Assembly (NCBI GenBank): GCA_000002435.2
Contig: CM018790.1
Length of the DNA stretch: 64,000 nt
Origin: Giardia intestinalis
Taxonomy: Eukaryota
Strand: one strand, 5' to 3'
The notes under the pieces were generated by a model, which saw only the letters and a program-made list of their open reading frames with translations, ran no database searches and had not been told where the DNA came from. The translations under genes were made by a program, and so were the position numbers. Shown here piece by piece: positions 2,052 through 49,715 of the stretch (position 1 is its first letter; every line of letters begins with the position of its first letter).

Positions 2052-2138
2052 CTTACTAGTTCCACATTGTAAATTGATTCATATCCATCTATTCCTTTGC
2101 TTGCTGTTGGGTTGCTCTTCTGATTTTCGATTTGGAAA

Positions 2139-35095: not shown

Positions 35096-35097
35096 AT
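35091..35097 (+). terminator. AGTGAAT polyadenylation signal overlapping the TGA stop (35093-35095) of the 34076-35095 gene.
   Basis: Sequence ...caaaAGTGAATcact... The minus-strand gene's stop codon starts 1 nt later, at 35097. Confidence 0.55.
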
Positions 35098-36527
35098 CAC
35101 TCGTTGAAGATGGCCCACAAGGACCGAGATTCTTGCTCGTGCTCGTACTCATAGTCCACCTCGCTACTGACAGCGTTGTGGAGGCTCGACTCGCTCCGGA
35201 AAGAGTCTAGTGCCCCTCCTTCCAAGTGGCTAGCGAGGTCTTCACGAATACTGGCAGGCAATCCGCGATCGTTGCGCACGCTTTCTGCAGCAGTGAGCCC
35301 GCTATGCTCAGCTCGCTGTCTTTTACGTTGCACAGAAGCATCCTCTTCTGGATCGACAGTTCCCTCTCTTGCTGCTTGAAGAGCGCGATAAAAGTCTCCG
35401 TGCTGAGCATCAAATAACTGAAGCTTTGCTTGCCTGACACCTGCAGGAGCAATATATTCCTGAATAGAGATGTCGCTTGCCAGACTCAAATCAATTGGTA
35501 TGGACATTGCAGTCGCCTGTGCGCCCTGAGCTAAAAGCGATCCTAGACTTGCCAACTGTTCGTGTGCTGCAGATTCTGCATAGTGCCGATGGTAAAGATG
35601 TCTGCGTACAAGAGATGGGGGCCGTACGTCTACGCCCTCAAGGTCGAGGTCTACATTACGAAGAACATCACCAATGGTTAGCTTGGCGAATAGCTCTGAT
35701 GATTGCATTTCTTGGAGACGGCGCGCAATGGTGTCTGGAGAACAAAAGACACAGCGGGAAATGCGATGAATGGGTATCCCATAGTTTAGTAACTTAAGCG
35801 CAACAAAAATACTGGCGCCTAACAAGCCTGATGGAAGCCTGCCGGTGTGAATATTAATAGCGGTAGAGGCCTTAAGAATGTACTTAGATACAACAAGAGT
35901 ATGCTCACGGAGCTGATCCACAGATGTTATGTGGATATTAGCGAAAAGCATACAATCTCTGTTGTCTTGAAATGCAGTCGTGAACTCTTCTTTCAGAATA
36001 CTATCCACAAACCGTGGTAACAGTGATTCAAGATCCTGGTAAGGTAGCTTGATATTATATTGACGCAGAAATGGCTGTATGTACTTGTTGAGCGTGAAAA
36101 CAGAAACGTTAAGAGCATCTGCATAGTCTATCAGAAGATGGGAGAGGTTGTGCTGTCGCCCCACAATGTAAAGAAGAGCTGCTGCCAAGAGATTGTTTCT
36201 CCGTCCTCTCGTTGCTTTGTCGCGCAGACAATTGGCATAGTAGTCGCTGGCTTTCCGAACAAGCTCCATTGGTAAATTTAGAATCATTGCAATTGTCTCT
36301 AGCTCCTTGGAAAAGTGTTTGATTGCAAGACTGCGAGCCGTGGAGGAGGTGTTAGCGCTTATGAAGTTCCCCATCACGGTGGACACACCATTTTGATCTT
36401 GGTAGATTAGATCATTGACAATGAGAGTGTCCATGATTACAAGCCCACAGTTACCACAGAACACTTTTGCTTGGCCCTCGTCAGTTATCGTGCTATTGGA
36501 AAGGCAAAATGGACATGAAATGGACAT
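35097..36527 (-). CDS. TFIIB-related transcription factor, 476 aa: an N-terminal zinc ribbon and two cyclin-like repeats plus a ~150-aa C-terminal extension. BRF1/TFIIIB-like or TFIIB.
   Basis: MSISCPFCLSNSTITDEGQAKVFCGNCGLV is a C-x2-C...C-x2-C zinc ribbon. Two cyclin-fold repeats follow (…LLAAALLYIVGRQHN…; …GLLGASIFVALKLLNYGIPI…). ATG at 36525-36527 with an AT-rich initiator. Confidence 0.65.
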   Translation of the reverse strand: MSISCPFCLSNSTITDEGQAKVFCGNCGLVIMDTLIVNDLIYQDQNGVSTVMGNFISANTSSTARSLAIKHFSKELETIAMILNLPMELVRKASDYYANCLRDKATRGRRNNLLAAALLYIVGRQHNLSHLLIDYADALNVSVFTLNKYIQPFLRQYNIKLPYQDLESLLPRFVDSILKEEFTTAFQDNRDCMLFANIHITSVDQLREHTLVVSKYILKASTAINIHTGRLPSGLLGASIFVALKLLNYGIPIHRISRCVFCSPDTIARRLQEMQSSELFAKLTIGDVLRNVDLDLEGVDVRPPSLVRRHLYHRHYAESAAHEQLASLGSLLAQGAQATAMSIPIDLSLASDISIQEYIAPAGVRQAKLQLFDAQHGDFYRALQAAREGTVDPEEDASVQRKRQRAEHSGLTAAESVRNDRGLPASIREDLASHLEGGALDSFRSESSLHNAVSSEVDYEYEHEQESRSLWAIFNE

Positions 36528-36589
36528 TCTTTTTTGATTGTTTACTCTGTCCCAGCAGATGATGATTCACTCCACCCAGCGGTTGCTCC

Positions 36590-36875
36590 CAGTGCTGTGC
36601 TGCCAGATTTACCTGCGGGTATGGTCTAGCAATCTTGTGGGTAAATTGTCGCTTAATTCCTAGCCAATCCGGAGACGACTGTTGGTCATTGATAACATAA
36701 CAAGAGGGTCCTCTCCAGTGATACATCCAGGGCCCGGTACATTTCTCTTCCGTTTCATGGGCGTGTGCTCTGTCTGGATGTGCACGTCAGCCTACCTAGG
36801 ATTCAACTTACTTGCCCATCTGCGTCGTCCACCAGTGATTTCTCTCCTTGGTCTACCGCTCTGATGGTGGAGGGT
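36590..36875 (+). repeat. Copy A of a diverged direct repeat of ~285 bp, roughly 65-75% identical by eye to copy B at 42062-42350.
   Basis: Matching blocks: GTGCTGCCAG/GTGCTACCGG; ccGGAGACgActgTTGGTcaTTGATaACATAACaAGaGG vs ccGGAGACaAaggTTGGTtgTGGATgATATAACgAGgAG; GTGTGCTCtGtCTGgaTGTGCAC vs GTGTGCTCaGCTGAgTGTGCAC; CaTCtgCGTCGTCCACCAGTG...CTCTCCTTGGTCT vs CATCGTCCACCAGTG...CTCTCCTTGGTCT. Confidence 0.55.
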
Positions 36876-37495
36876 CTTAACAGTTGATGTTCCTGGACCG
36901 ACGCCTCGACAGACCGAAGCATCACCCAAGTGTGCTGTGCAGATGGACCAGCCCACACGTCACCGAGCCAGACGCACTGCACAGGGTGAGCGTCGACATG
37001 ATCTCGCGCTGGATGGTGGAGCACCTCTGCGATCCGTGAGCAGAGGGTCATACTTCTCCCCCGACACCACCGCATAGGAGCTGTCCACTGGCATCCACGA
37101 ATGCGTACTATGACTCCAAGATAGAGGCGCACGGGGAGCGCACCTCCGATCATACTCGGGACCGATGCTCGCTTCATGAGAAGACGAAGAGGCACCCGAG
37201 GAACGGGGTAGATACCCGGGGTCGCGGTGTGCAATCTCCGTCGTAGAGCATCAGCACCACAAAGCTACTCCGGAGTGCATGGCCAGAGTCAACTGCTCTG
37301 AGGCCAGATCGCCGCGACAGACGCAAGGCCCGAGACAGCGGGTGCTCAATAGATGTCAGACGATAGCTGACCCAAGCCAGTCAGAGAGAAGAGACGCCCC
37401 GGAGCGCATAGTGGAGCACCCAACGGCTCCCAGGCGGGATGCACAAGGCTCTTCTCCAGAGTGGGCGGCATCCGAGCTTCGGACTCTGGACGGGT

Positions 37496-39633
37496 TTACT
37501 CGGACAGGAGCTGGCAAGCCGACATTGTTGAAACAGAGTAGATCTCGTTTGGGAGGATGCCTACTATCTCCATGCGATCCTTCTTCTTAGCGATATTGAG
37601 GGCAGTGGTACCGGGCGAGTGACCATGGCAGCTGCAGGTTGTCTTCAGATCTTTCTCGTTTTCCTTAAGAAGTCTTGCACACTCCACGGTGTTACTATAT
37701 GCCGCACTCATAAGGGCGATCTCCCTTGGTCGTTTGCATGCCGCCTTCCTCCTTCATTAGGAGCCTGACGCACTCTGGATGATCATTGCACACCGTCCAT
37801 GTGAGGACAGTCTGATGCTCGTTGTTCCTTATGCCAGTCTCCTGCTCGAGTAGCTCTACGATTCCTTCGTGCCCTCGTGCTGCTGCATACATGAGCTCCG
37901 TCCACCCTGAGATACTGCTCTCATACTCCATCAAAAGCTCAACGTGCCCAATATAGTCCACCAGGGGGTCATTGGAACGGTCGCACCGTGCCGCGAATAC
38001 GAGAGCGGCCCAACCGCCTACTTTCTCTCCCTTTTCGTGCTCTGCTAGCAGTTCTACTATTTCTGCGTATCCATTGCCGCAGCCATCATCAGAGCTGTTC
38101 CTTTGCGCATGTACCATCCGCTTCTTGTGACCTCTTTGTATGTTTTCCTCCCCCTCTGGATGGGTAAGAGTGCTTTTACAGCCCCCGCGTCGTTTCTATT
38201 GACAGCTCGCATGAGCGCCGTGACGCCGTTCTCATCGGTTGGGTCGATGGCCTCCACCACGGTTCCATGTCCTGCCTCTGCCGCAATCACCAAGGCCGTC
38301 TTGCCTTCGCTGCCGATCCGGTCCTTCTCATATGGGACCAGAAGGGAGGCAGCTCTTGCATAGTCCTCCTCTGTGGCGATCATCAGGTAGTCCAGCCATT
38401 CTTGTCCTGGAGACCGTTCTCCTCCCCAACAAGCAACTCGACGGGACTGATGCGCCCCTGCTCGTCGCGCTGACCAACACCGAGTCTTTCTTCAAGCAGC
38501 ATCCAGACGGTCTCCGTGCTATTCGTATGCGCGGCACGCATCAGCCCGGGCAACAAAAAGAGGCTGGACTGAGGGTCAGTCGTGTTCATCCTGTCATCGA
38601 ACTGTGCAAGCTTATTCTCCAGTGCCTTAATCATAGCTAGATGTTCCTTGCACTGATCTTCAAGTGCGTCGATCTAGTGGATTTAGTCTTAACATCCTCT
38701 TCCAGCAGCGCGATCCTGGCGTTAGCGCCATTCAGCGCAGCCTCCAAGGATCTGCACCTGTACCTCAGCATCACGCACTGACCCCCCAGCTCACTAACTG
38801 GGATGTCGAATGTAGCGAGCGTCTCGTGCAGCTCCCTGGCCGTCGGCCTCCTTCCAGGATCCAGCACGAATATCCCCTCCAGAACATTCTGCATGAAGCC
38901 ATCAGTGACACCGCTCAGGTCCGGCCTCCATCCATCAACGAAGACCTCTGCTGGCTCCTTGCCCCCCAAGAAGTTTGGTCTCCTCAGAGTAGTAAGTTCA
39001 TAAATGATGACCCCGAGGCTCCACACGTCGGAAGCATGGCTGGTCTCATTACGGAGGAGAATCTCGGGGGCCATGTATACTGCCGTGCCTGCAATGGTGC
39101 TCCCGCATCTCAGGGCGTCCTTACAGAGGCCGAAGTCGGCGATGATGAAGTGTTCACCATCTGCGCTGACGAGGACGTTCGCAAGCTTGAGGTCGCGGTG
39201 GACGAGGCCCTTGTAGGGGCGACCGTCGGCACCCACTCCGCTGAGGCCGTGGAGGTAGGCGAGGGCGGCGGCGACCTGCTTCATGACAGAGAGGATCACA
39301 GCGATAGGGACGGGGATCTTCCTTCGTTTGTGCTCGGTGAGGAGGCGCTCAAGGGTCTTGTCGTGCCGGTCCGTGACGACGTAGATGAGGCCCTCGTCTT
39401 CAATCACTTGATGATACTTGAGGACCCGGGTGAAAGATGTTAAGAAGGGCGGCCAGCCTACGCTTAATAGCATCCACACCGTGCTGATCCAGACCGTCGA
39501 GCCGGATCTCCTTCACAGTGAGGTGGGGGCATCCCTTGGGAGAGTAGATAACACTGAAGGCCCCCGCTGAGCACGGGGATGCCACCAGCGCCCATCGGCT
39601 CTGCAAAGCCGCTAACTGCACTGTTACTAGCAA
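37496..39633 (-). pseudogene. Disrupted NEK-type protein kinase plus ankyrin-repeat gene. The kinase N-lobe, the catalytic core with a coiled coil, and at least four ankyrin-repeat segments lie in six different ORF fragments separated by at least five frameshifts or stops.
   Basis: Fragments 39400-39633 (…SAGAFSVIYS…VKEIRLDG…LNIFHP), 38637-39479 (VLKYHQVIEDEGLIYVVTDRH…HRDLKLANVLV…DFGLCK…YMAPE…coiled coil), and 38383-38634, 38057-38383, 37695-38117, 37496-37711 (ankyrin repeats). The frame changes at ~39425-39430 (a CCCGGG run), ~38640-38675, 38383, ~38057-38117 and ~37700. Confidence 0.55.
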
Positions 39634-40263
39634 CTCCTAGGGCGCCCTCTGCGGTGGCTGGGACAGGGAGTGGAGTCAACAGCCATCGCTAATCTTAACG
39701 CAATCCGGAGCCACCCTTTGGAGTGGCCTTGGCTACTGCCCGAGCAAGGCGCCCAGTGTGAGCTGCCGATGACAGGCCAAGGAGGGCATACTCGCGGCTC
39801 GTATGGTCCTAAGCAGGTCGGATTCTGGAGGCTAACACGGAGCGCCCCGACAAAACACGCCGACTGGGGACCACACTGAGCTCTGGATGCATCAATAGAG
39901 AGAAGCTCTTAGTATGTTATCCACAACCAGACCTCGTCTCCGGACGGCTGGGAAGTGAGCGCGGCTTACCCGTGGGACCTCTGAGCGCACCTGCAGGCGG
40001 CCCCAGCGATACAGTGACGGCAATGTACAGGAGTGCACCCCGAGCAATCACTCCACAAGAGAGGTGCGATTTGAGTCTGGCCCTCACTGGTCCTGTTCCT
40101 ATGGAAGTCAGAGAGAACTACACTATCAGCTGGCCTCCAGTGAGCGTGCTCCTATCTTGTCCTTCTTCAGTCCAACTGGTTAAGGGAGCAAGAGCAGCTG
40201 TCTCTCACTGCTCGCGGCAACACATCAGCCTGACAGAAGAGCAGTGGCATACTAACCCGGCTA

Positions 40264-42027
40264 ATGTTGGTAGGATTTCTCCTAGTTTGTGCAACAGTGC
40301 TGGCAAAGGACAGCGGGAAGGACACATGCTTCCCGGGATACACCCTCAACCCCACCACGAAGAAGTGCGACAGGAACTCCGCGCCGTGCGAGGTCGAGGG
40401 CTGTGATGTCTGCGAGGAAAGCAACCCCCAGCAGTGCAAGACGTGCGGCTCAGGCTACACCCTCAACCCCACCACGAAGAAGTGCGACAGGAACTCCGCG
40501 CCGTGCGAGGTCGAGGGCTGTGATGTCTGCGAGGAAAGCAACCCCCAGCAGTGCAAGACGTGCGGCTCAGGCTACACCCTCAACCCCACCACGAAGAAGT
40601 GCGACAGGAACTCCGCGCCGTGCGAGGTCGAGGGCTGTGATGTCTGCGAGGAAAGCAACCCCCAGCAGTGCAAGACGTGCGGCTCAGGCTACACCCTCAA
40701 CCCCACCACGAAGAAGTGCGACAGGAACTCCGCGCCGTGCGAGGTCGAGGGCTGTGATGTCTGCGAGGAAAGCAACCCCCAGCAGTGCAAGACGTGCGGC
40801 TCAGGCTACACCCTCAACCCCACCACGAAGAAGTGCGACAGGAACTCCGCGCCGTGCGAGGTCGAGGGCTGTGATGTCTGCGAGGAAAGCAACCCCCAGC
40901 AGTGCAAGACGTGCGGCTCAGGCTACACCCTCAACCCCACCACGAAGAAGTGCGACAGGAACTCCGCGCCGTGCGAGGTCGAGGGCTGTGATGTCTGCGA
41001 GGAAAGCAACCCCCAGCAGTGCAAGACGTGCGGCTCAGGCTACACCCTCAACCCCACCACGAAGAAGTGCGACAGGAACTCCGCGCCGTGCGATACTCCC
41101 AACTGCAAGGCCTGCGACAACCCCAAAACAGACAACGAAATCTGCACTGAATGTAATGATAACAATTATCTCACTCCAACCAGTCAGTGCGTATCTGACT
41201 GCACGACCCTCAAGGGCTACTACGGAGACGATAGTGGCAAAAAGACATGCAAGAGGTGCAACGATGCGTGCGCAGAGTGTAAGGGTGAGGGTGCTGATAA
41301 GTGTACGGCCTGCCCTGCTGGGAAGATGCTTCAGTATACAGATGCTGATACTCCTGCCAATGGGGGCACGTGCATGAACCAGTGCAGCGTGAGCCCTGCA
41401 AACGATGGATGCGCAGAGTGTGGGGCCCAAATAGGAGGAACTGCATATTGCTCAAAGTGCAAGAACACTCAACAGGCACCACTGGATGGCAACTGTGCGG
41501 CCAATACGCGAACACGATTTTGCACTACGGTGAGTAATGGAGCATGCACTCAATGTGAAAATAACTACTTCCTCAAAGATGGCGGTTGCTATCAAACAAA
41601 TAGACAGCCTGGTAAACAAGTGTGCACCCAAGCTAACGGAGGAAAGTGTCAGACATGTGCCAATGGCTTAGCAGCAACTGATGGCAACTGTGCAGAATGT
41701 CATCCTACTTGTGCTACGTGCTCGACTGCAGGTACGGCTGACAAGTGTAAGACCTGTGCCACTGGGTATTACAAGGAAAACGGTAGCGATACCACTACTG
41801 GGTTATGCAAGAAGTGCTCAGAGAAGATCTCTGGATGCAAGCAATGTGTGTCATCATCTGGCAGTTCAGTCATATGTTTAGAATCAGAAGTAGGCACTGG
41901 TGGAAGCGTCAACAAGAGCGGCCTCTCCACGGGGGCCATCGCGGGGATCTCCGTTGCTGTGATTGTTGTCGTCGGAGGGCTTGTCGGATTCCTTTGCTGG
42001 TGGTTCCTCTGCCGCGGGAAGGCGTAG
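40264..42027 (+). CDS. vsp: Variant-specific surface protein (VSP), 587 aa: signal peptide, six and a half identical 39-aa Cys-rich tandem repeats, a unique CXXC-rich region, a transmembrane helix and the invariant CRGKA tail.
   Basis: MLVGFLLVCATVLA signal peptide; many CXXC motifs; C-terminus …IAGISVAVIVVVGGLVGFLCWWFLCRGKA*. Confidence 0.9.
   Translation: MLVGFLLVCATVLAKDSGKDTCFPGYTLNPTTKKCDRNSAPCEVEGCDVCEESNPQQCKTCGSGYTLNPTTKKCDRNSAPCEVEGCDVCEESNPQQCKTCGSGYTLNPTTKKCDRNSAPCEVEGCDVCEESNPQQCKTCGSGYTLNPTTKKCDRNSAPCEVEGCDVCEESNPQQCKTCGSGYTLNPTTKKCDRNSAPCEVEGCDVCEESNPQQCKTCGSGYTLNPTTKKCDRNSAPCEVEGCDVCEESNPQQCKTCGSGYTLNPTTKKCDRNSAPCDTPNCKACDNPKTDNEICTECNDNNYLTPTSQCVSDCTTLKGYYGDDSGKKTCKRCNDACAECKGEGADKCTACPAGKMLQYTDADTPANGGTCMNQCSVSPANDGCAECGAQIGGTAYCSKCKNTQQAPLDGNCAANTRTRFCTTVSNGACTQCENNYFLKDGGCYQTNRQPGKQVCTQANGGKCQTCANGLAATDGNCAECHPTCATCSTAGTADKCKTCATGYYKENGSDTTTGLCKKCSEKISGCKQCVSSSGSSVICLESEVGTGGSVNKSGLSTGAIAGISVAVIVVVGGLVGFLCWWFLCRGKA
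40336..41091 (+). repeat. Perfect tandem repeat inside the VSP: a 117-bp unit (39 aa, GYTLNPTTKKCDRNSAPCEVEGCDVCEESNPQQCKTCGS) in six full copies plus a 54-bp partial seventh. Copies begin at 40336, 40453, 40570, 40687, 40804, 40921 and 41038.
   Basis: Read directly; the copies appear nucleotide-identical. Confidence 0.9.
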
Positions 42028-42042
42028 ACTTAGGTAGTAAAC
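42028..42042 (+). terminator. VSP extended polyadenylation element ACTTAGGTAGTAAAC, containing AGTAAAC at 42036-42042, immediately after the TAG stop.
   Basis: Sequence ...ggcgTAGACTTAGGTAGTAAACgcatt... matches the conserved VSP 3' motif ACTYAGRTAGTRAAY. Confidence 0.75.
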
Positions 42043-42061
42043 GCATTACTTTATGTAGCTT

Positions 42062-42350
42062 ATGTGGATGTGCTACCGGGTGCTTGTAGGTACGATCCAG
42101 AAATCTCACGAATAAATTCTCGCTCCTTTGGCCGTGTCCGGAGACAAAGGTTGGTTGTGGATGATATAACGAGGAGCTCCTCTCTTTTAGTATATCTAAA
42201 ACCTGGCACCTTCCCTGGTCGCTCCGCAGGGGTGTGCTCAGCTGAGTGTGCACACCCGGGAATGCTTGCTCAGTCGGCCTGGGATTCCGCTTACTCACCA
42301 TGTACATCGTCCACCAGTGGCGCCTCTCCTTGGTCTTCCTTCACGGTGGG
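42062..42350 (+). repeat. Copy B of the diverged direct repeat (see 36590-36875). It starts ~35 bp after the VSP polyA signal and is followed by ~430 bp of very GC-rich sequence with no ORF.
   Basis: Alignment blocks listed under copy A. Confidence 0.55.
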
Positions 42351-42977
42351 TGAAGCCCGGGTCGCCGTCTTTTTTAGATGCCCCGTCTGTCAGGGGCTGC
42401 CACCGGGCTCTCCGCTGGCTGGGCCCTCGGTGTCCGTCCGGCTGTGTCCCGGTCCAACTGGTGGGTAGAGGCAGGGGGATTGCTGGGGCAGTGAGGACCG
42501 AGTGGGTGGTGTCCATCTGTGCCCCTGGGCTCTCGGTGGGCCATTGGGGCGGTGGGTGATTCTCGCTCTGTTTGCTGCAGTGGTTGTGTCTGATCTCCAG
42601 CCCGCGCTGCACGAGATATAAGCCAGGCACCGACGATCACACTAGGTCCCTGGTCGTCCCTCTGCAAGAGTAGAGGGGAGCCCCTGTCTGCTGTCACAAC
42701 TACCCCACCCCCAGGCGGGTCCGGCAGCACCACAATGAAATCTTCAGCATGCACATTTTCTGCTCGTGTCATCGTAGTTTAGATTGTGCATATCTTAGTT
42801 ATACTAAACTCTACTTCATCAGCCACTAGAACTAGCATAGCTTGGAGCAGCGCTTATTTACTAACTATACTGATGTGTGCTTTACAGCTACACAGTAATC
42901 CACATAGAATACTAATCCATGTCAAGTTGCAAACTACTAAGGTTAGCGCTCATACTTCTTACGGTCCCTTCATGGCC

Positions 42978-45900
42978 TTAAATATCAGAACTGCCTGTGC
43001 TACACTGCCCAATTGATGTATTGCTACTTGTGACGCCAGAGGCTTTATTGACATGCATTGTGGATGGAACAGTGGATTGTATTGCTAACAGATTTGCCAA
43101 GGGAGCCGATTGGGCTATATCGGAAGCACTATGAGTGGAAGACGTATCTGAAATACTTGAAGGAGCCTTTGCTTCAACCACGTCTGTAGTTATCTTAATA
43201 GTTGATGTCTTTTTCCGTGAGTCTACATGTGATGGTGTAGACGGTGAGCTGGTATTTGATTCCGCTATGGGGTCGTCTAAATTCGCTGGTCTCTGGTCAG
43301 TACTATTGCCAAGAAAGCACAACTTTGGTATTATGGGGTGTGCACTCATTGTTTTCGACTGAAGATCTGTATCATCGTCGTCTTGGTTAACTAAGCGAAT
43401 GCGTGTGATTGGTGTCTTGATACCTGCGGACTCTTTCGGAAGGGACTGCAAATTTAGTGCAGGAATTACTAGAGGGCTCCGTGGAGAAGTGGGGCGCAGC
43501 TGTGGCTTAGCATCGCTACCCGCTGGAGTCCCTGTCGAAGTGCTACTTTCTCCTTTCACAGTGAAATCATTCCATCGCGTCAGTTCGTACTGGATTGATG
43601 CATTTATCCAATGCAGTGGAAGATTGATGCGCCCTATCAAGAGAGTCCTAAGTCTCCGCAAGAAGAGACCCCTGGGGAAGCTGGATTCCTGTTTGCTAAG
43701 AACACACGGGTCCCATGAAATATGGCGCCCATACCGGTAAAGAAAACAATAGTGTGCGGTTAGTAGTTGAATGCGGCACAGATTGAAGCCTTGCATATCC
43801 ACCTCAGGCCGTGTACACTTGCAACAACAGCACATATATTGTGAGGTCCCATGACCGATATCTGGAAAGATAGTAGGCGGGGGGTATGAGTATCTGTACT
43901 CTGGAGTAGAGCCGACTAACGACTCTTGCATGCTGTTAATAGGCTCGTCTGCAGAAAAGTGGAGCGTAGAAAGAGTAGGAGGACGGGCCTGTTGCTGTTG
44001 ATTGGATGGCGTAATTGTGCTGTTATTAGTAACAATACTTGTTGTGCGTAGCTTGCTTAAGGATCCTGTTGTACGAGTTTGGCGTTTATTACGCATTAGT
44101 ATGATATCTGAAGCATTCTGCTGGTCATCTTCATTGTAGGGCTCATAGTAGAAGCTGTTATTCCTACTCACTATACTATGTTCTCCGTGAGGTTCATCAT
44201 CGACATTGTCGTCATCGATAGTTGTGCAAATCGAGTCATCAAAGATGCTTGTAAGACCTCCTACATCCTTTAGCTCTTTGCGGATCTGAGACGCCACAAT
44301 ACAATCCTCCAAAGAGCGTGTAAACATCCTATCCCGATATAAAAAGCGTTGCTCAGCCCCCATATCCTTGAAAATCTCTGGATTCCCTGTTTCAGTCGAG
44401 CTTTCTCGTTCCTTAAGACTGGTCTGCTTCTGGTGTCCTTCTATTCCTGCGAGTATTTTGCCTATAGCTGTTCTATTGTATAACTTGTTCCGCTGGATAT
44501 ACTTGTCATTCAATGCGGAATCAAGGGGCTTCTCCGGTTGCTCATCAACTACGTCTTGCTCTCTTTCAGGCTTAATACTACCAGAGAGATCAACGCTCTT
44601 CTGAGACATAGCGCTACTTATTGAGGCTTCTTTTGCATCCAGTTCTCGTAGTACCGGCGAGCTCGGCTCTGGCCTGGCATGAAATTGTTGTTGTTGTTGT
44701 TGTTGTTGCTGTTGCTGTTGAGGCGATTGATTTGGTGTGGACTTAGTATTCCGCGTGGGAGAAAGCACGCAGCTTTGTGATGTAGCTAGAGTGGAGAACT
44801 GGAAGGCGTTTCCCGGTAAACTACGTGCAGACGGTCTCTGTGAAAACGCCTTTGACTTCACCTGATTATGATCTGCAAGTGGAGCAGAGGTCATACTGAT
44901 ATGTTCAATTTCAGAAATTTCTTGAATATCCAGTTTGATCCCTGAAAGCGTCTTTGTGGACAGAGGAGGGTTGGAGTACAAGGGGTTAGAGAGCGCCTTA
45001 ATCGGAACCGATGCAGACGATTTGTGTTCTGAGAACCCAGCAGTTAATTGATTGAACGGGGAGCTTGCGCGACTGCTTTCTAATGACTCAGTTAAAGAAG
45101 AGCTAGCACTTTGCGCACTAATGTCAGAGTGCTGAAGCATATGCGGTTGACTTTGCACTTCTGCCACGGGAAAAAGAGGCCCAGGCTGGAAACTATTAAT
45201 ATCATCTTTTAGATAGTATTCTACGTCTCTCTCATTGCCCAGGGTCTCTGAGAAAGACCTGGTAAGCATCTGATACCATAGTCGCGTTCCCAATTCATAA
45301 AAGGACGATCCTACCGTTAGCGTAGTTAATCCATCAATTACGTTTTGCAACTGCATTCGCTTAAGCTTTGCAATGATGCTTCTAAGCGTGGGGCACTTTC
45401 TGATGGTGTTGAGGGTCTCCTGATCATCCAAATCGAAAAACGAGTTGGCATTATGGGCGTTTCCGTGAAGCAGACGAAGAGAAAACTCGACAGCATTCTG
45501 GGAGCTCCCAATATAAACATCCAAAGGGGATATCTTTTCAGACCAATCAAAATTATGAATATGGAGAATATTTTTCTCATCGACAAGGGCGTGAAGTACA
45601 TTTTCAAAGGAGTCGGACAGTATGGAGTCAAGGGTGTTCGACTCAGGTCCCTGTGAGCCATTCCCAGCCACACCATACTCTTGTCTCATAGAGGCATAAG
45701 CGTCGAGAAGAGGATGCTCAAAGCGGGCCGTGCTTTTGCTATCCAGTGAGGACACCCGCAAGTCGGGAGCTGAGAGAGAAACCTTGAGCGGTGGCGCAGA
45801 AGAGATTGGAGCCTGTTCGTGGGTTAGACTGCGCTGATATTTCTTGAGAAGCTTCTTGATGTAGTTGAAAATATGCTTACGACGGGGATAGAGGGATGCA

Positions 45901-48900
45901 GCCGACGACGCTTCAGCGACGAATTTCGAAGAATTAATAATCGACAGCAGTTGCTTGCTCCTTGTTCGTTCATTCAAAACAGGCGACGGAAGCCTGTATA
46001 GTAAGCTATCGGGGCTTCCATCATATAGTGATTCTGAGAGTACCCGTTCCAACAACGTTTTGACATGACGTGCCTCGTCCATTAGAGATACCGAGTTGCG
46101 CCTCACATTATCAGTGTGGAAAGTCGGCGAGGCTTTGGAGACCGTTTTCCGGTGTTCAAATATCCGGTCAACCATACAAATACCTGTGGATTTTCTGACC
46201 ACGTGTGCCTGTGCAATCTCAGGCACAGTAATATATACCGACTTATTAAACTCTGTGTCCGACAATAAATCAGATTGCCCTTCAGAGTCGAGACTAAAGG
46301 ACATGTGCCTGTTCAGAACATCACTGCTACTCATTGGACTCTTCGCTCTATTCTTTGAGCACAGCTCTGTTTTTGTTTTAAGCTTTTCTGAAGCGATGAT
46401 GTGGGCATGAGTATTAATCTTCTCCCCACTGGTAAAGTCATCTATGCGGTAACCTGTATGATTGAGCACATCATGTTTGGACTTTCTAAATAGCTTAGAA
46501 GAGAAGAGGGCCAGTGTGTTAGCCAGCAGAGGAATATCGGTGCACGTATAGATCATACTGTTGTCAATGGTGCTTGCAGTGATACACTTGCTATTATTAG
46601 CCAGCACGTATTGTCTGCGGCGCATAATTATCAGCATGTGAAACCGTCGGAGCTGATGGTAGTCTCTCTTCGCTTCTCTCCACAACGCACGGATGTTCCC
46701 AGACTTACTGGTCGCTACGGAGTGTGCGTGAGACAAAACAGAGTGCATCGTCGTTACACTGATGTCCGAAGTCCCCTTTGCCGGAATGCTCATTGGCAGC
46801 TTAAATTGTCTTGGATTGACAGCAGGATGATACATGCATTCAAACAGCGTGTATCTGTGACTTGGAATCTCGTCTAGAAGACCACACAGCAAGTCGGTAA
46901 TCAGCAATCCAAAGGTTCCACAGAGAGCAAAGGCTTCTTGGCTATACCTGTACAGAGGGGTTCGTCTGACCAAGCCTGTGAGTGAATGAAAAAGCATAAC
47001 TCCTGTTTGCCAAGCGTCTGCATGTACAGCTGAAAACAGGGAATGAGCCCTGTGTGGGTCGTGGTCACTACACGTCTGCATAACAGCGCGAGACTCGGGA
47101 GAAAGAATAGTCGGAGTCCCTGTGGAACTGCTAATAAAGTAGGTATTCCTTGGCATAGCCGGAAACGTGTTGATCTGTCTAATAGATGAGAGGTAGGATT
47201 GTAGTGCCTGCCCAACCTTGTTAGTCTCTATCGTCTCCTGAATGAAGTCTTCAATGCGGCTGATAGTGGAGAGAAGCGCAGCGTCTCGTTGTGACAGTGA
47301 GCTATTTGAAGTCTTAATTGAGCAATCAATGGCTGGCACCAACAAGGAGTTGTCAGCAGGGAAATCTGCGTCTAGATGGGTATGACCTTTGCATGTTTTC
47401 TCTGCAAGTCCAGTTCCATCGGGTGTTAAGTCAGTCAATTTCAAGCTCAGCGCGTCAGTGTGAAAAGCTTTTTGGAAGGTTGCCGCATGCGAATCATCGT
47501 CGAGCAAAGGAATGTCTACACAAGGCTCTAAGTTGCCTAAAAAGGCGTCCTTTTGGTCATCCAAGGAAAGAACCAGAGTAAGGCAAGAAGAGTGAAGCGC
47601 TCTTGTCACAGAACTTTTGTCACTAGTACGTGCAATATGAGCCGTATCAATGCTTGCATTGGGCTTTGCAGCAGTAACTGTTGCTTGTCGTAAGCTGAGA
47701 GTAGTATCCTTGCATGAAGAGTTGTTTGGTTTAATACTTATTTTGTCAAAAATAGGCTCCGACATATCAAATGATTGTGTCTCGTAGATTCCAGACATCC
47801 TGCATATCCCTATACTTCCATTAAGGGTGTCCATATCTATTTGTGAGGGCTTCAAAGACTGCTGTGAGTCGTCCAGCTTAGCTGCCTCAGTGCATATGGC
47901 AGTGCCCTCTTTGACTAAGATGTCAGCATTGAAGCTAAAGGCCGACGAAACTAAGTCGGCCTCTCTCCTAGATGAAGCATGCACACAGTCAGAATCCATA
48001 GAGGCTACTACATCATGACCCAACAAAAGGCTGCCTTCGTCTTCTTGTGGTAAAATACGTTGCCGCACAAGGTCATTAAAAAAGCATGTAAAGCTCTTGC
48101 GAAGAAGAGAAAGGTGTCTATTGTATATGCTTTTTAGTGTCTCTAGGACGGTCTGTGCTGTTGGTAGTCTGACCCCCTCTTCCTCGAGGATGATTGCAGT
48201 ATCAAAGTCACTGATCTTTGCACGGTAGGGTGCAGTATCCGAGTCCCCTAACAGATAGTACGTTATATCTGATGACTCTTTTAGTGATTGAAGTCTGTAC
48301 CGAGATCCGCTTGGAAGCAGCAAAGGAGAAAGAACGTTGTCATTGAGGCGAGAGGATATACGTGTAGGCCCTCTGGGCATAACAGTGGGCGGATTGGCGG
48401 CGGTTGGTAGTGCATTTTGTAAAGGAAGCTTCAAAGAAAGTGGGGGTATATTGTACCTATCTTTAGGGTCCCTCCTCAGCGTATTCTCAATTGGGTTGCT
48501 ATGAGATGGATCACTACTCAGAGCAGTACTTGCCAAGGGAGTGCTGGACTGAGATTGTACGGTCCCAACTGCAAAGTCACCTATTGTGCCTGAGGTGCTA
48601 GTAAAGAACAGGTCGGTCGTTCTGGGGACCTTCCGTGGAAGTAGCTTACTTGCAGGAGGTATCGGTGTCTTGAAATTGCTTTGAAGATCGGTGGTGATGA
48701 TGATGTTCTCTAATTTGATATCTTGGTGTACAACGTTGCAGAAGTGCATGTAGCAGAGAGCATCGACAACCTGATAGAAGAGTATCATGATCTTCTTTAG
48801 ATCTGCTGTGCGTACAACCTCCTGGAGGGTCCCCCCGTCACAGTACTCTATTATGAAAACGAAGTTATCATCATAGTTCATGGTGCACCGACCTGTGTTC

Positions 48901-49715
48901 TGATAGCGTGGAGTCAGGTTGGAGTCCAATTGGGAGCTACGGGCCGAGTATTGTTTGAGCTTACTGCCAGCCGATGGCATACGTCTATGGGCAAGCTCCG
49001 ATCCCTGGGTCAATGGTTTAGCAATACCATTAAGAGCCATCGGATTGTGCAAAAGAGGCTGCAAATCGGAGACAAGCTCTGGTTGTAGCATCCCCTTGGC
49101 GTTTGAGAGTTGATCAATAATAGATTGATACTTGCAGGGAAGCTCACATATCAGGTTGACCTGCTGTGCAATAGACAGGATTGTCTGAACCCACGGGGGC
49201 AAGCTTCCCGGTGTTACGGCGTACTGACCGGCAAACGTAGAACCAGGAATTAGGGACTCCATAGAGTTCTCCACAGAGCAAACATCAGCGTAAATAGGGT
49301 GATGCATCACCTCAATGAGGTTAAGAATAGATGGGTGTGCGGTGGTCAAGAAATCCATGACCCGGGAGCAATTCCAAAGGAATTTGTCCGCAGATTCCTG
49401 GGTTAAGAGCTTACGCCTCAGAGAAGTTCGGTTGATCATGCGCATGGCTGCTTTTTGCTCTGTAAGCGGGTTATGGCATAGTCTCACGTTGGCATAGGCA
49501 CCCCGACCGATTGTTCTCTGTATGATCCACTCGTTAATGCACACGTTCCCCTGGGCTGTCGTTGTAACCCAGATCCGATCCTTGACTGGAACTCGAAGCA
49601 GTCCTGGCAGAAATGGAGCAGAGATGCCTGTCAAAAGGTGGAAGACGCCTGTCGCTGACTCTGACGTACTAGATGTGCTGTCAGTACTTGCATGGTTCAC
49701 TTCATGCAAGGCCAT
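42978..49715 (-). CDS. Large protein of 2,245 aa with an N-terminal protein-kinase-like domain split by long insertions (probable pseudokinase or very divergent kinase), a polyQ tract, and a long low-complexity C-terminus.
   Basis: Subdomains I-II IGRGAYANV…KAAMRMI (the beta-3 Lys is Arg), HPSILNLIEVM, a ~200-aa insert, FVFIIEYCDGGTL, VHQDIKLENIII (HRD replaced by HQD), a ~170-aa insert, ISDFDTAII (DFG replaced by DFD), DAWQTGVMLFHSLTG, and PSHRYTLFECMYHPAV. Confidence 0.6.
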   Translation of the reverse strand: MALHEVNHASTDSTSSTSESATGVFHLLTGISAPFLPGLLRVPVKDRIWVTTTAQGNVCINEWIIQRTIGRGAYANVRLCHNPLTEQKAAMRMINRTSLRRKLLTQESADKFLWNCSRVMDFLTTAHPSILNLIEVMHHPIYADVCSVENSMESLIPGSTFAGQYAVTPGSLPPWVQTILSIAQQVNLICELPCKYQSIIDQLSNAKGMLQPELVSDLQPLLHNPMALNGIAKPLTQGSELAHRRMPSAGSKLKQYSARSSQLDSNLTPRYQNTGRCTMNYDDNFVFIIEYCDGGTLQEVVRTADLKKIMILFYQVVDALCYMHFCNVVHQDIKLENIIITTDLQSNFKTPIPPASKLLPRKVPRTTDLFFTSTSGTIGDFAVGTVQSQSSTPLASTALSSDPSHSNPIENTLRRDPKDRYNIPPLSLKLPLQNALPTAANPPTVMPRGPTRISSRLNDNVLSPLLLPSGSRYRLQSLKESSDITYYLLGDSDTAPYRAKISDFDTAIILEEEGVRLPTAQTVLETLKSIYNRHLSLLRKSFTCFFNDLVRQRILPQEDEGSLLLGHDVVASMDSDCVHASSRREADLVSSAFSFNADILVKEGTAICTEAAKLDDSQQSLKPSQIDMDTLNGSIGICRMSGIYETQSFDMSEPIFDKISIKPNNSSCKDTTLSLRQATVTAAKPNASIDTAHIARTSDKSSVTRALHSSCLTLVLSLDDQKDAFLGNLEPCVDIPLLDDDSHAATFQKAFHTDALSLKLTDLTPDGTGLAEKTCKGHTHLDADFPADNSLLVPAIDCSIKTSNSSLSQRDAALLSTISRIEDFIQETIETNKVGQALQSYLSSIRQINTFPAMPRNTYFISSSTGTPTILSPESRAVMQTCSDHDPHRAHSLFSAVHADAWQTGVMLFHSLTGLVRRTPLYRYSQEAFALCGTFGLLITDLLCGLLDEIPSHRYTLFECMYHPAVNPRQFKLPMSIPAKGTSDISVTTMHSVLSHAHSVATSKSGNIRALWREAKRDYHQLRRFHMLIIMRRRQYVLANNSKCITASTIDNSMIYTCTDIPLLANTLALFSSKLFRKSKHDVLNHTGYRIDDFTSGEKINTHAHIIASEKLKTKTELCSKNRAKSPMSSSDVLNRHMSFSLDSEGQSDLLSDTEFNKSVYITVPEIAQAHVVRKSTGICMVDRIFEHRKTVSKASPTFHTDNVRRNSVSLMDEARHVKTLLERVLSESLYDGSPDSLLYRLPSPVLNERTRSKQLLSIINSSKFVAEASSAASLYPRRKHIFNYIKKLLKKYQRSLTHEQAPISSAPPLKVSLSAPDLRVSSLDSKSTARFEHPLLDAYASMRQEYGVAGNGSQGPESNTLDSILSDSFENVLHALVDEKNILHIHNFDWSEKISPLDVYIGSSQNAVEFSLRLLHGNAHNANSFFDLDDQETLNTIRKCPTLRSIIAKLKRMQLQNVIDGLTTLTVGSSFYELGTRLWYQMLTRSFSETLGNERDVEYYLKDDINSFQPGPLFPVAEVQSQPHMLQHSDISAQSASSSLTESLESSRASSPFNQLTAGFSEHKSSASVPIKALSNPLYSNPPLSTKTLSGIKLDIQEISEIEHISMTSAPLADHNQVKSKAFSQRPSARSLPGNAFQFSTLATSQSCVLSPTRNTKSTPNQSPQQQQQQQQQQQQFHARPEPSSPVLRELDAKEASISSAMSQKSVDLSGSIKPEREQDVVDEQPEKPLDSALNDKYIQRNKLYNRTAIGKILAGIEGHQKQTSLKERESSTETGNPEIFKDMGAEQRFLYRDRMFTRSLEDCIVASQIRKELKDVGGLTSIFDDSICTTIDDDNVDDEPHGEHSIVSRNNSFYYEPYNEDDQQNASDIILMRNKRQTRTTGSLSKLRTTSIVTNNSTITPSNQQQQARPPTLSTLHFSADEPINSMQESLVGSTPEYRYSYPPPTIFPDIGHGTSQYMCCCCKCTRPEVDMQGFNLCRIQLLTAHYCFLYRYGRHISWDPCVLSKQESSFPRGLFLRRLRTLLIGRINLPLHWINASIQYELTRWNDFTVKGESSTSTGTPAGSDAKPQLRPTSPRSPLVIPALNLQSLPKESAGIKTPITRIRLVNQDDDDTDLQSKTMSAHPIIPKLCFLGNSTDQRPANLDDPIAESNTSSPSTPSHVDSRKKTSTIKITTDVVEAKAPSSISDTSSTHSASDIAQSAPLANLLAIQSTVPSTMHVNKASGVTSSNTSIGQCSTGSSDI
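44686..44721 (-). repeat. (CAA/CAG)n microsatellite, read as (TTG)n on the plus strand, encoding a ~12-residue polyglutamine run in the kinase-like protein.
   Basis: ttgttgttgttgttgttgttgctgttgctgttg; the protein has QQQQQQQQQQQQ. Confidence 0.7.

What the first reader, a model, noticed from the sequence alone, without database searches (positions are those of the whole stretch)
36590..42350. Diverged ~285-bp direct repeats bracket a 5.5-kb GC-rich cassette holding a dead NEK/ankyrin gene and the VSP
Copy A (36590-36875) lies just outside the TFIIB/BRF promoter. Copy B (42062-42350) starts right after the VSP polyA signal. Both have the same orientation and share clear blocks (…CGTCCACCAGTG…CTCTCCTTGGTCT…). 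The bracketed segment is far more GC-rich than its neighbours. This looks like a footprint of a VSP-associated flanking element or a recombination or insertion boundary that may mediate turnover of the VSP repertoire. Translations of both copies give similar peptides (VIDNITRGSSP… vs VVDDITRSSSL…) but no convincing ORF.
Basis: seen in the sequence. Interest (0 to 1): 0.6.

Follow-up and report, generated by a model that had tools for sequence, protein, structure and literature searches.

The report
Triplicated VSP–NEK spacer in Giardia island
The two repeats are real, but they are two of three old, diverged copies of the non-coding spacer that joins a surface-antigen (VSP) gene to a NEK kinase gene, and they sit in a known type of fast-changing Giardia genome island whose parts are repeatedly overwritten by recombination.

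Summary
Copy A (36590-36875) and copy B (42062-42353) align over about 240 bp at 74% ungapped identity (z = 17.6 against shuffles).

This element ("U") has no conserved ORF, no Rfam match and no unusual RNA fold. Two other Giardia loci show what it is. L010 reads VSP stop, U, NEK start. L011 reads U, NEK start. U is therefore the spacer of a VSP→NEK gene-pair module.

The window is G. lamblia WB. Isolate DH (AII) has the same island with all three copies. GS (assemblage B) has a VSP+ankyrin island at the same site without U. P15 (assemblage E) has only 367 unrelated bp there. The island is probably ancestral rather than a fresh insertion, and U is not a target-site duplication.

WB and DH are 98-100% identical outside about 36677-42590 and 50-97% identical in 200-bp bins inside it. 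The VSP is swapped from just after the signal peptide to inside copy B. Some orthologous U copies are less alike than some paralogous ones, which indicates patchy gene conversion.

Verdict: an ordinary low-copy repeat in a known kind of variable island. A dedicated recombination role is not shown.

The parts
36590..36875 (+). U copy A. Diverged copy of the VSP-NEK spacer, 63 bp upstream of the BRF start codon. It sits at the left edge of the variable island.
   Evidence: nhmmer match at 36591-36874, E = 4.9e-82. Alignment to B has z = 17.6. WB and DH are identical up to 36677, differ in a patch at 36677-36800, and are identical again at 36800-36876.
37545..39621 (-). Dead, chimeric NEK kinase + ankyrin gene. 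GTG replaces the start ATG at about 39620. Frameshifts lie at about 39425, 38673 and 38386.
   Evidence: Pfam Pkinase and Ank hits on ORF fragments. ORF 38637-39479 is 100% identical to XP_001706213.1 of G. lamblia ATCC 50803. The first 65 codons are 86% identical to P0045. The kinase domain is 80% identical to P0005-type NEKs but only 46% to P0045. Identity to L010 and L011 falls from about 90% to about 50% at about 39420. The C-terminus maps to 37612-37553.
39713..40018 (-). U copy C. Inverted copy lying directly 5' of the dead NEK gene and 246 bp 5' of the VSP start.
   Evidence: Inverted repeats I1 and I2. blastn hits. nhmmer E = 5.3e-58. It runs colinear with L010 1267-2376 and L011 1-1072 through into the NEK gene.
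40264..42027 (+). Intact VSP gene (587 aa) with a TAatgTT initiator, a signal peptide and a CRGKA tail. It contains 6.5 identical 117-bp tandem repeats at 40339-41093.
   Evidence: Pfam PF03302, E = 5e-87. Translation. Tandem Repeats Finder. In DH the body from about 40305 onward is a different VSP.
42062..42353 (+). U copy B. It starts 35 bp after the VSP stop codon.
   Evidence: nhmmer E = 5.5e-73. The VSP 3' end plus the start of B is colinear with L010 1061-1245. WB against DH is only about 60% identical over 42064-42310, then about 90% from 42311.
42354..42766 (.). Island-specific DNA of unknown origin between copy B and the conserved 3' flank of the 2245-aa kinase gene.
   Evidence: No match in P15 before window position 42767. 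WB and DH reach about 99% identity only from about 42590. No NEK or VSP remnant was detectable. The first roughly 75 bp are shared with the ENA ORFs P0069-P0071.
36559..42766 (.). The whole variable, GC-rich island as defined by loss of synteny with Giardia P15.
   Evidence: P15 locus L007 has 367 unrelated bp here. Homology stops at window 36558 and resumes at 42767. GC is 0.568 against 0.48 and 0.46 in the flanks.

Best explanation
The repeated ~290-bp sequence (U) is non-coding. It is the spacer of a VSP→U→NEK gene-pair module: the 3' flank of a VSP gene running into the 5' flank of one NEK kinase subfamily.

The stretch between BRF and the 2245-aa kinase gene in G. lamblia WB is one of Giardia's variable VSP/NEK islands. 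It holds three old, diverged copies of U: A (+), C (-) and B (+). C still leads into a now dead NEK gene. B still follows a live VSP. A has lost both partners.

Shown here:
- the three copies exist;
- they are colinear with complete modules at other loci;
- the island is present in assemblages AI, AII and B and absent in E;
- identity between WB and DH is mosaic.

Inferred:
- The copies arose by direct and inverted segmental duplication of module parts, followed by deletions.
- Since then the copies, like the rest of the island, have been overwritten in patches by gene conversion, both with each other and with paralogous modules elsewhere.
- In that process U acts as one of several homology tracts. 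The others are the VSP signal-peptide region, the conserved VSP 3' end and the NEK leader. Exchange tracts start or stop in these tracts.
- U therefore takes part passively in VSP turnover. It is not a dedicated element.
For: **The repeat is real.** Three copies with z = 15-21 against shuffles.

**It is non-coding.** No shared ORF, no Rfam hit, and no fold or covariation signal.

**It belongs to a module.**
- L010 reads VSP stop (1186), U (1250-1499, E = 7e-30), NEK start (1598).
- L010 is colinear with window 41902-42072 (VSP end plus the start of B) and with window 39948-38830 (C plus NEK).
- L011 (DH paralog) reads U (1-202), NEK start (282), and stays colinear down to window 37401.

**State of the site in other isolates.**
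- DH has the same island with A, C and B.
- GS has VSP, ankyrin ORF, BRF at this site.
- P15 has the site empty.

**Gene conversion.**
- WB against DH is 98-100% identical in the flanks and 50-97% in 200-bp bins between about 36677 and 42590, in patches.
- Copy A exists as three haplotypes with clustered multi-base differences.
- In the core block, DH-B is closer to WB-A (80%) and DH-C (83%) than to its ortholog WB-B (70%). WB-C against DH-C is only 71% there, but 88-91% in the adjoining blocks.
- The NEK gene is chimeric, with a junction at about 39420.
- The VSP swap runs from just after the signal peptide to inside B.

**Literature.**
- Variable VSP/NEK islands are described in PMC3091692 and PMC4570179.
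- VSP duplications carry 139-729 bp of flank (PMC2996952).
Against: - The order of duplication events cannot be reconstructed.
- No NEK remnant follows A or B, and no VSP remnant precedes C. The origin of copy A is therefore a guess.
- I could examine only two extra-locus copies with context, because the chromosome-level WB assembly was not retrievable.
- Part of the WB-DH divergence could instead reflect old haplotypes kept in a polyploid, largely asexual genome, rather than ectopic conversion.
- Short blocks stay conserved in all copies (GTCCGGAGAC, TGGTTGTGGATAACATA, CTCTCCTTGGTCT). This could mean some constraint that a purely passive model does not predict.
Confidence: 0.7

Rival explanations
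1. One reading: A and B are the two ends of an inserted VSP/NEK cassette. They would be terminal direct repeats, a long target duplication, or the footprint of an insertion or excision by recombination between them.
For: A and B are direct and lie near the island edges. A starts 32 bp inside the left synteny break with P15 (36558). In the 3' part of U, A and B are each other's closest relatives, at 71% against 55-61%. P15 lacks the island.
Against: - A third, inverted copy sits in the middle.
- P15 has no solo U and carries 367 unrelated bp instead.
- The right boundary lies 240-410 bp beyond B.
- GS has a VSP/ankyrin island at the same site without U. The simplest history is therefore an ancestral island that P15 lost.
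- A-B divergence of 26-35% exceeds the 10-18% A-E divergence of the flanks.
- No transposase or reverse transcriptase, and no short target-site duplication.
Confidence: 0.08
2. U is a selected cis element. It could be a recombination boundary that delimits VSP cassette exchange, working like the 70-bp repeats of trypanosome VSG cassettes. Alternatively it could be a regulatory region: a NEK promoter or leader, or a source of VSP antisense transcripts.
For: - Short blocks are kept in all copies despite about 35% overall divergence.
- The downstream end of the WB/DH VSP replacement falls at the conserved block CCAGTGGCGCCTCTCCTTGGTCT at 42311.
- C-type copies are about 90% identical across three loci and continue into the NEK leader.
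Against: - There is only one observed exchange boundary.
- U is missing from three other VSP 3' flanks and from one other NEK 5' flank (L009, L011's VSP, L015).
- Orthologous copies differ by up to 50% between WB and DH, which argues against strong constraint.
- The high identity of C-type copies stops abruptly at a chimeric junction, which fits recent conversion better than selection.
- No RNA structure signal.
Confidence: 0.14
3. U is a decayed fragment of a coding gene, a non-coding RNA gene, or a small non-autonomous mobile element.
For: Translations of the copies resemble each other (VIDNITRGSS / VVDDITRSSS / VVDNILRAS). Copy B lies in a 134-aa ORF, and ORFs were called on similar DNA in ENA contigs.
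Against: - Similarity is equal in all six frames, and the frames shift between copies.
- No Pfam hit for the B ORF.
- No Rfam hit at E <= 1 inside U.
- Folding z-scores range from -1.3 to +0.1.
- The covariation term is weak, at -3.4 kcal/mol.
- No terminal inverted repeats or target-site duplications.
- No other copy in the 64-kb window.
Confidence: 0.04

Closest known systems
Variable, non-syntenic, GC-rich VSP/HCMP/NEK/Protein 21.1 islands of Giardia genomes (the 'variome'; Jerlstrom-Hultqvist 2010, PMC3091692; Ankarklev 2015, PMC4570179)
   Same: - GC-rich segment holding a VSP and a NEK/ankyrin gene.
- Breaks synteny with P15.
- Sharply raised divergence between assemblage A isolates, while the flanks are 98-100% identical.
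   Different: Those papers describe the islands at gene level. The triplicated ~290-bp spacer, the exact exchange boundaries and the chimeric NEK at this locus are, as far as I could find, not described there.
Duplicated VSP units with co-duplicated flanks: inverted identical VSP pairs whose flanks stay identical for 139-729 bp (Adam 2010, PMC2996952), and VSP pairs separated by NEK/ARP genes or pseudogenes in G. muris (PMC7641422)
   Same: - A few hundred bp of VSP flank travels with the gene.
- Copies C and B form an inverted pair around the VSP.
- A NEK pseudogene lies next to it.
   Different: There is only one VSP here, not a pair. The repeats are 60-80% identical, not near-identical. A third, direct copy is present.
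70-bp repeats and conserved 3' ends that bound VSG gene-conversion cassettes in Trypanosoma brucei (my own knowledge; reviewed in PMC6893398)
   Same: A repeat in the flank of a variant-antigen gene, at which one observed replacement tract ends.
   Different: - U lies downstream, not upstream, of the antigen gene.
- It is not in tandem arrays.
- It is absent from the other VSP flanks examined.
- Giardia switches VSP expression without DNA rearrangement.
- Only repertoire evolution, not switching, could be involved.

Membership tests
Giardia variable VSP/NEK island | Contains members of the VSP and NEK/ankyrin families | tested here: met
   PF03302 VSP at E = 5e-87. Pkinase and Ank hits on the dead gene. 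100% match to an annotated WB NEK.
Giardia variable VSP/NEK island | Higher G+C than the conserved core around it | tested here: met
   0.568 against 0.481 and 0.464.
Giardia variable VSP/NEK island | Breaks synteny between assemblages and shows raised divergence between isolates | tested here: met
   Absent in P15. Different content in GS. WB against DH is 50-97% identical in 200-bp bins inside and 98-100% outside.
Segmental (low-copy) repeat derived from a VSP-NEK module | Copies at other loci are colinear with the same neighbouring genes | tested here: met
   L010 reads VSP, U, NEK. L011 reads U, NEK.
Segmental (low-copy) repeat derived from a VSP-NEK module | Low copy number genome-wide, always beside a VSP or NEK | not testable with these tools
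   No complete Giardia genome could be searched. WB chromosome look-ups failed and JGI metagenome scans found nothing.
Transposable element with terminal direct repeats or a target-site duplication | Empty site in a relative carries one copy of the duplicated target or the intact target | tested here: not met
   The P15 site has 367 unrelated bp and no U.
Transposable element with terminal direct repeats or a target-site duplication | Element-encoded transposition protein, or terminal repeats that mark both ends exactly | tested here: not met
   The island carries only a NEK pseudogene and a VSP. Copy B ends 240-410 bp before the right boundary. There is also an extra inverted copy.
Inverted identical VSP pair (Adam 2010) | Two identical VSP ORFs, head-to-head or tail-to-tail, 2-4 kb apart | tested here: not met
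   tblastn of the VSP finds only one VSP in the 64-kb window.
Structured non-coding RNA | Match to a known family, or a fold more stable than shuffles with compensatory changes | tested here: not met
   No Rfam hit in U. Folding z from -1.3 to +0.1. Covariation term -3.4 kcal/mol.
Dedicated recombination boundary (VSG 70-bp-repeat-like) | Present beside most cassette genes, with conversion tracts ending in it more often than expected | tested here: inconclusive
   One tract ends in copy B. U is absent from three other VSP flanks. A genome-wide test was not possible.

The most novel reading that the evidence does not exclude
U, and especially its conserved 3' block ...CCAGTG-N5-CTCTCCTTGGTCT, would be a preferred end point for gene-conversion tracts that replace the antigen-coding body of an expressed-type VSP. 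The signal-peptide/initiator region would act as the other arm. Giardia would then have cassette-like boundaries for VSP repertoire renewal, comparable in logic to trypanosome VSG cassettes.
Probability: 0.1. Interest if true: 0.7.

Novelty: new member of a known kind. Interest (0 to 1): 0.33.

Why it matters
The locus gives a base-pair-level picture of how one Giardia surface-antigen island changes. Three isolates can be compared against flanks that are 98-100% identical.
- The same site holds a different VSP in WB and in DH.
- The swap begins right after the signal peptide and ends inside a flanking repeat.
- The neighbouring NEK gene is a dead chimera.
- The three spacer copies trade patches.

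This supports the view that ectopic gene conversion renews the VSP repertoire. It also offers a small, well-bounded locus for measuring that process by long-read sequencing. It does not reveal a new kind of element.

Tried and rejected
- **Coding.** Six-frame translation and tblastx gave equal similarity in every frame and no shared ORF. The minus-strand ORFs that end inside A and B are unrelated. Coding was rejected.
- **RNA.** An Rfam scan at E <= 1 found nothing in U. RNAalifold and single-sequence folds gave no signal. A structured RNA was rejected.
- **Other copies in the window.** An nhmmer profile of the three copies found no other copy in the 64 kb.
- **Lost partner genes.** I searched for NEK remnants after A and B and for a VSP remnant before C. 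Nothing was significant.
- **P15 filler.** The 367-bp filler in P15 showed no similarity to U or to the island.
- **Look-ups that failed.** Exact-protein look-ups of the window's VSP and the B ORF were not on record. Look-ups of the WB paralogs P0011 and P0046 were also not on record.
- **Metagenome scans.** Two JGI scans, one for an A/B-type block and one for the NEK leader, gave 0 hits.
- **NEK paralog locus.** L009 in DH contains no U.
- **Protein search with the B ORF.** It found three more B-type versions.
Full report

Yes. Copy A (36590-36875) and copy B (42062-42353) are direct repeats. The best local alignment joins 36618-36857 to 42089-42339 with 170 matches, 59 mismatches and 33 gap columns. 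Its score is 58, against 18.5 +/- 2.2 (maximum 32) for 500 dinucleotide-preserving shuffles, giving z = 17.6.

The other details also check out:
- A begins 63 bp upstream of the BRF/TFIIB start codon. BRF is ORF 35097-36527 on the minus strand, with TFIIB and zinc-ribbon Pfam hits.
- B begins 35 bp after the VSP stop codon and 21 bp after the AGTAAA signal.
- The DNA between the repeats is GC-richer, at 0.568 against 0.481 and 0.464.
- The copies share no ORF. Similarity is seen in all six frames and the frames shift between copies.

**2.

There is a third copy, C. It is inverted and lies at about 39713-40018 on the minus strand, between the dead NEK gene and the VSP. Its alignment to A has z = 21 and to B z = 15. 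A profile built from the three copies recovers all three (E = 5e-82, 6e-73, 5e-58) and nothing else in the 64 kb. I call the element U.

On the + strand the locus reads as follows:

| Feature | Coordinates | Strand |
|---|---|---|
| BRF | 35097-36527 | - |
| U copy A | 36590-36875 | + |
| unassigned DNA | about 670 bp | |
| dead NEK+ankyrin gene | 39621 down to about 37545 | - |
| U copy C | 39713-40018 | - |
| intact VSP | 40264-42027 | + |
| U copy B | 42062-42353 | + |
| unassigned DNA | about 410 bp | |
| 2245-aa kinase gene | 42978-49715 | - |

The VSP contains 6.5 perfect 117-bp repeats at 40339-41093.

**3. What U is not**

- It has no Pfam hit for its longest ORF.
- It has no Rfam match at E <= 1.
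- It folds no better than shuffled sequence, with z from -1.3 to +0.1 on either strand.
- A seven-sequence RNAalifold consensus has only a weak covariation term of -3.4 kcal/mol.
- It has no terminal inverted repeats or target-site duplications.

**4. What U is**

The NEK fragment at 38637-39479 is 100% identical to XP_001706213.1 of G. lamblia ATCC 50803, so the window is isolate WB, assemblage AI. BRF is XP_001706220.1.

I fetched loci of related NEK genes, and two of them contain U:
- **L010** (ENA contig, locus of P0045) reads VSP stop at 1186, U at 1250-1499 (E = 7e-30), NEK start at 1598. L010 1061-1245 is colinear with window 41902-42072, which is the VSP end running into B. L010 1267-2376 is colinear with window 39948-38830, which is C running into the NEK gene.
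- **L011** (isolate DH, a paralogous locus) starts inside U (1-202). The NEK start follows at 282. The locus stays colinear with the window down to 37401.

U is therefore the spacer of a VSP→U→NEK gene-pair module. In the window:
- C keeps its NEK partner.
- B keeps its VSP partner.
- A has neither. No NEK remnant follows A or B, and no VSP remnant precedes C.

U is not a general flank. It is absent from another NEK/VSP locus in DH (L009), from the VSP in L011 and from the GS locus.

The copies fall into two subtypes:
- C, L010 and L011 are about 90% alike in the 3' part of U and continue into the NEK leader.
- A and B are closest to each other in the 3' part, at 71% against 55-61%.

A protein search with the 134-aa ORF over B found three more distinct B-type versions in ENA contigs. 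These are P0069-P0071, at 52-59% identity to WB (BLASTP), with tblastn identities to DH-B between 60% and 78%. I could not fetch their contexts.

**5. History of the site**

| Isolate | Assemblage | Locus | State of the site |
|---|---|---|---|
| P15 | E | L007 | BRF and the big kinase 709 bp apart. Homology with the window ends at 36558 and resumes at 42767, with 367 unrelated bp and no U between. |
| DH | AII | L012 | Same island as WB, with A, C (carrying a 58-bp deletion) and B. |
| GS | B | L015 | A VSP, then an ankyrin ORF resembling the ankyrin tail of this NEK subfamily, then BRF 38 bp later. All are on the BRF strand, and there is no U. |

Assemblage B is generally placed outside A+E (my own knowledge, in line with the tree used in PMC3091692). 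The simplest reading is therefore that a VSP/NEK island at this site is ancestral and P15 lost it. Independent gains cannot be excluded.

A-B divergence of 26-35% exceeds the 10-18% divergence of the flanks between A and E. This also argues against a recent insertion that created A and B.

**6. Dynamics**

WB and DH are 98-100% identical up to 36677 and again from about 42590. Between those points, identity in 200-bp bins ranges from 50% to 97%.

- **Copy A.** The sequences are identical up to 36677, differ in a dense patch at 36677-36800, and are identical again to 36876. A third haplotype (L001) carries a different patch at about 36836-36850.
- **VSP.** The two isolates share the 5' flank and the signal peptide (MLVGFLLVCATVLA in WB, MLLGFLLVCATVLA in DH). 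From about 40305 the extracellular part is a different VSP with a different repeat. The difference extends through most of B, where 42064-42310 is about 60% identical, and ends at 42311 in the conserved block CCAGTGGCGCCTCTCCTTGGTCT.
- **U core block.** DH-B is closer to WB-A (80%) and DH-C (83%) than to its ortholog WB-B (70%). WB-C against DH-C is 71% in this block, but 88-91% in the neighbouring blocks.
- **NEK gene.** U(C) plus the first 65 codons are about 90% identical to L010 and L011. Identity then collapses at about 39420, where a frameshift lies, and the kinase domain belongs to another NEK subfamily. It is 80% identical to P0005 and 46% to P0045.

These block-wise conflicts and clustered changes are the usual signature of patchy gene conversion among repeated sequences. 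Retention of old haplotypes could contribute as well.

**7. Mechanism**

Shown:
- three copies of a module spacer;
- mosaic exchange within the island;
- one VSP replacement whose downstream end lies inside U.

Inferred:
- The copies come from direct and inverted segmental duplications of module parts followed by deletions. This fits the documented habit of Giardia VSP duplications to carry 139-729 bp of flank (PMC2996952) and to lie next to NEK/ARP genes and pseudogenes (PMC7641422).
- U now serves passively as one of several homology tracts for ectopic conversion.
- I found no evidence that U is a dedicated signal.

**8. Comparison with what is known, and novelty**

GC-rich, non-syntenic islands with VSP, NEK and Protein 21.1 genes are described (PMC3091692). 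So is their high divergence among assemblage A isolates (PMC4570179). In the papers I could search, I found no description of this particular triplicated spacer, the exact swap boundaries or the chimeric NEK. Even so, they are an instance of a known phenomenon.

I file it as a new member of a known kind, with modest interest. The most novel reading not excluded is that U's conserved 3' block is a preferred end point for VSP cassette replacement. I give that about 10%.

Noticed in passing
window 39420-39430 (minus strand), within the dead NEK gene 37545-39621: The NEK pseudogene is a chimera of two NEK subfamilies. The leader plus the first 65 codons are about 90% identical to the P0045/P0047 type. 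The kinase domain is 80% identical to the P0005 type and only 46% to P0045. The junction coincides with a frameshift.
   Followed up: yes
window 40305-42310 against L012 (DH) 6281-5430: WB and DH carry different VSPs at the same site, behind a shared 5' flank and signal peptide. WB has 39-aa repeats (117 bp x 6.5). DH has about 3 copies of an unrelated ~40-aa repeat. The DH copy number may be collapsed by assembly.
   Followed up: partly
window 36701 (inside copy A); loci L002-L006: Short-read (Logan) contigs from at least 17 samples that encode the exact WB BRF protein all end at the same base, 36701. This lies in the patch of copy A that differs between WB and DH. It suggests either a second allele in the polyploid genome or a near-identical copy elsewhere. 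One sample (L001) reads through and carries a third haplotype.
   Followed up: partly
L015 (GS, AHHH01000039.1) 1-1975: In assemblage B the site upstream of BRF holds a VSP followed 48 bp later by a 233-aa ankyrin-only ORF. That ORF ends 38 bp before the BRF start codon, which leaves very little room for a BRF promoter.
   Followed up: no
L007 (P15) 9603-9969: The 'empty' site in P15 contains 367 bp with no detectable similarity to the WB island, to U, or to anything else in the window. Its origin is unknown.
   Followed up: partly
window 39815-39872 against L012 about 6715: DH lacks 58 bp in the middle of copy C that WB has.
   Followed up: no
window 36876-37544: About 670 bp between the end of the dead NEK gene and copy A has no assigned origin. 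Only 37401-37478 matches anything: it is 80% identical to the start of a 348-aa ORF with no Pfam hit, downstream of the NEK gene in L011.
   Followed up: partly
window about 2100-3950 (+): A long ankyrin-repeat coding region (probably a Protein 21.1-type gene) showed up as tblastn hits of NEK ankyrin tails. It is unrelated to the finding.
   Followed up: no
proteins P0069, P0070, P0071 (ENA metagenome contigs): Three further, mutually different versions of copy B plus the ~75 bp that follow it exist in public metagenome assemblies. None is identical to WB or DH. This stretch is either highly polymorphic or multi-copy.
   Followed up: partly
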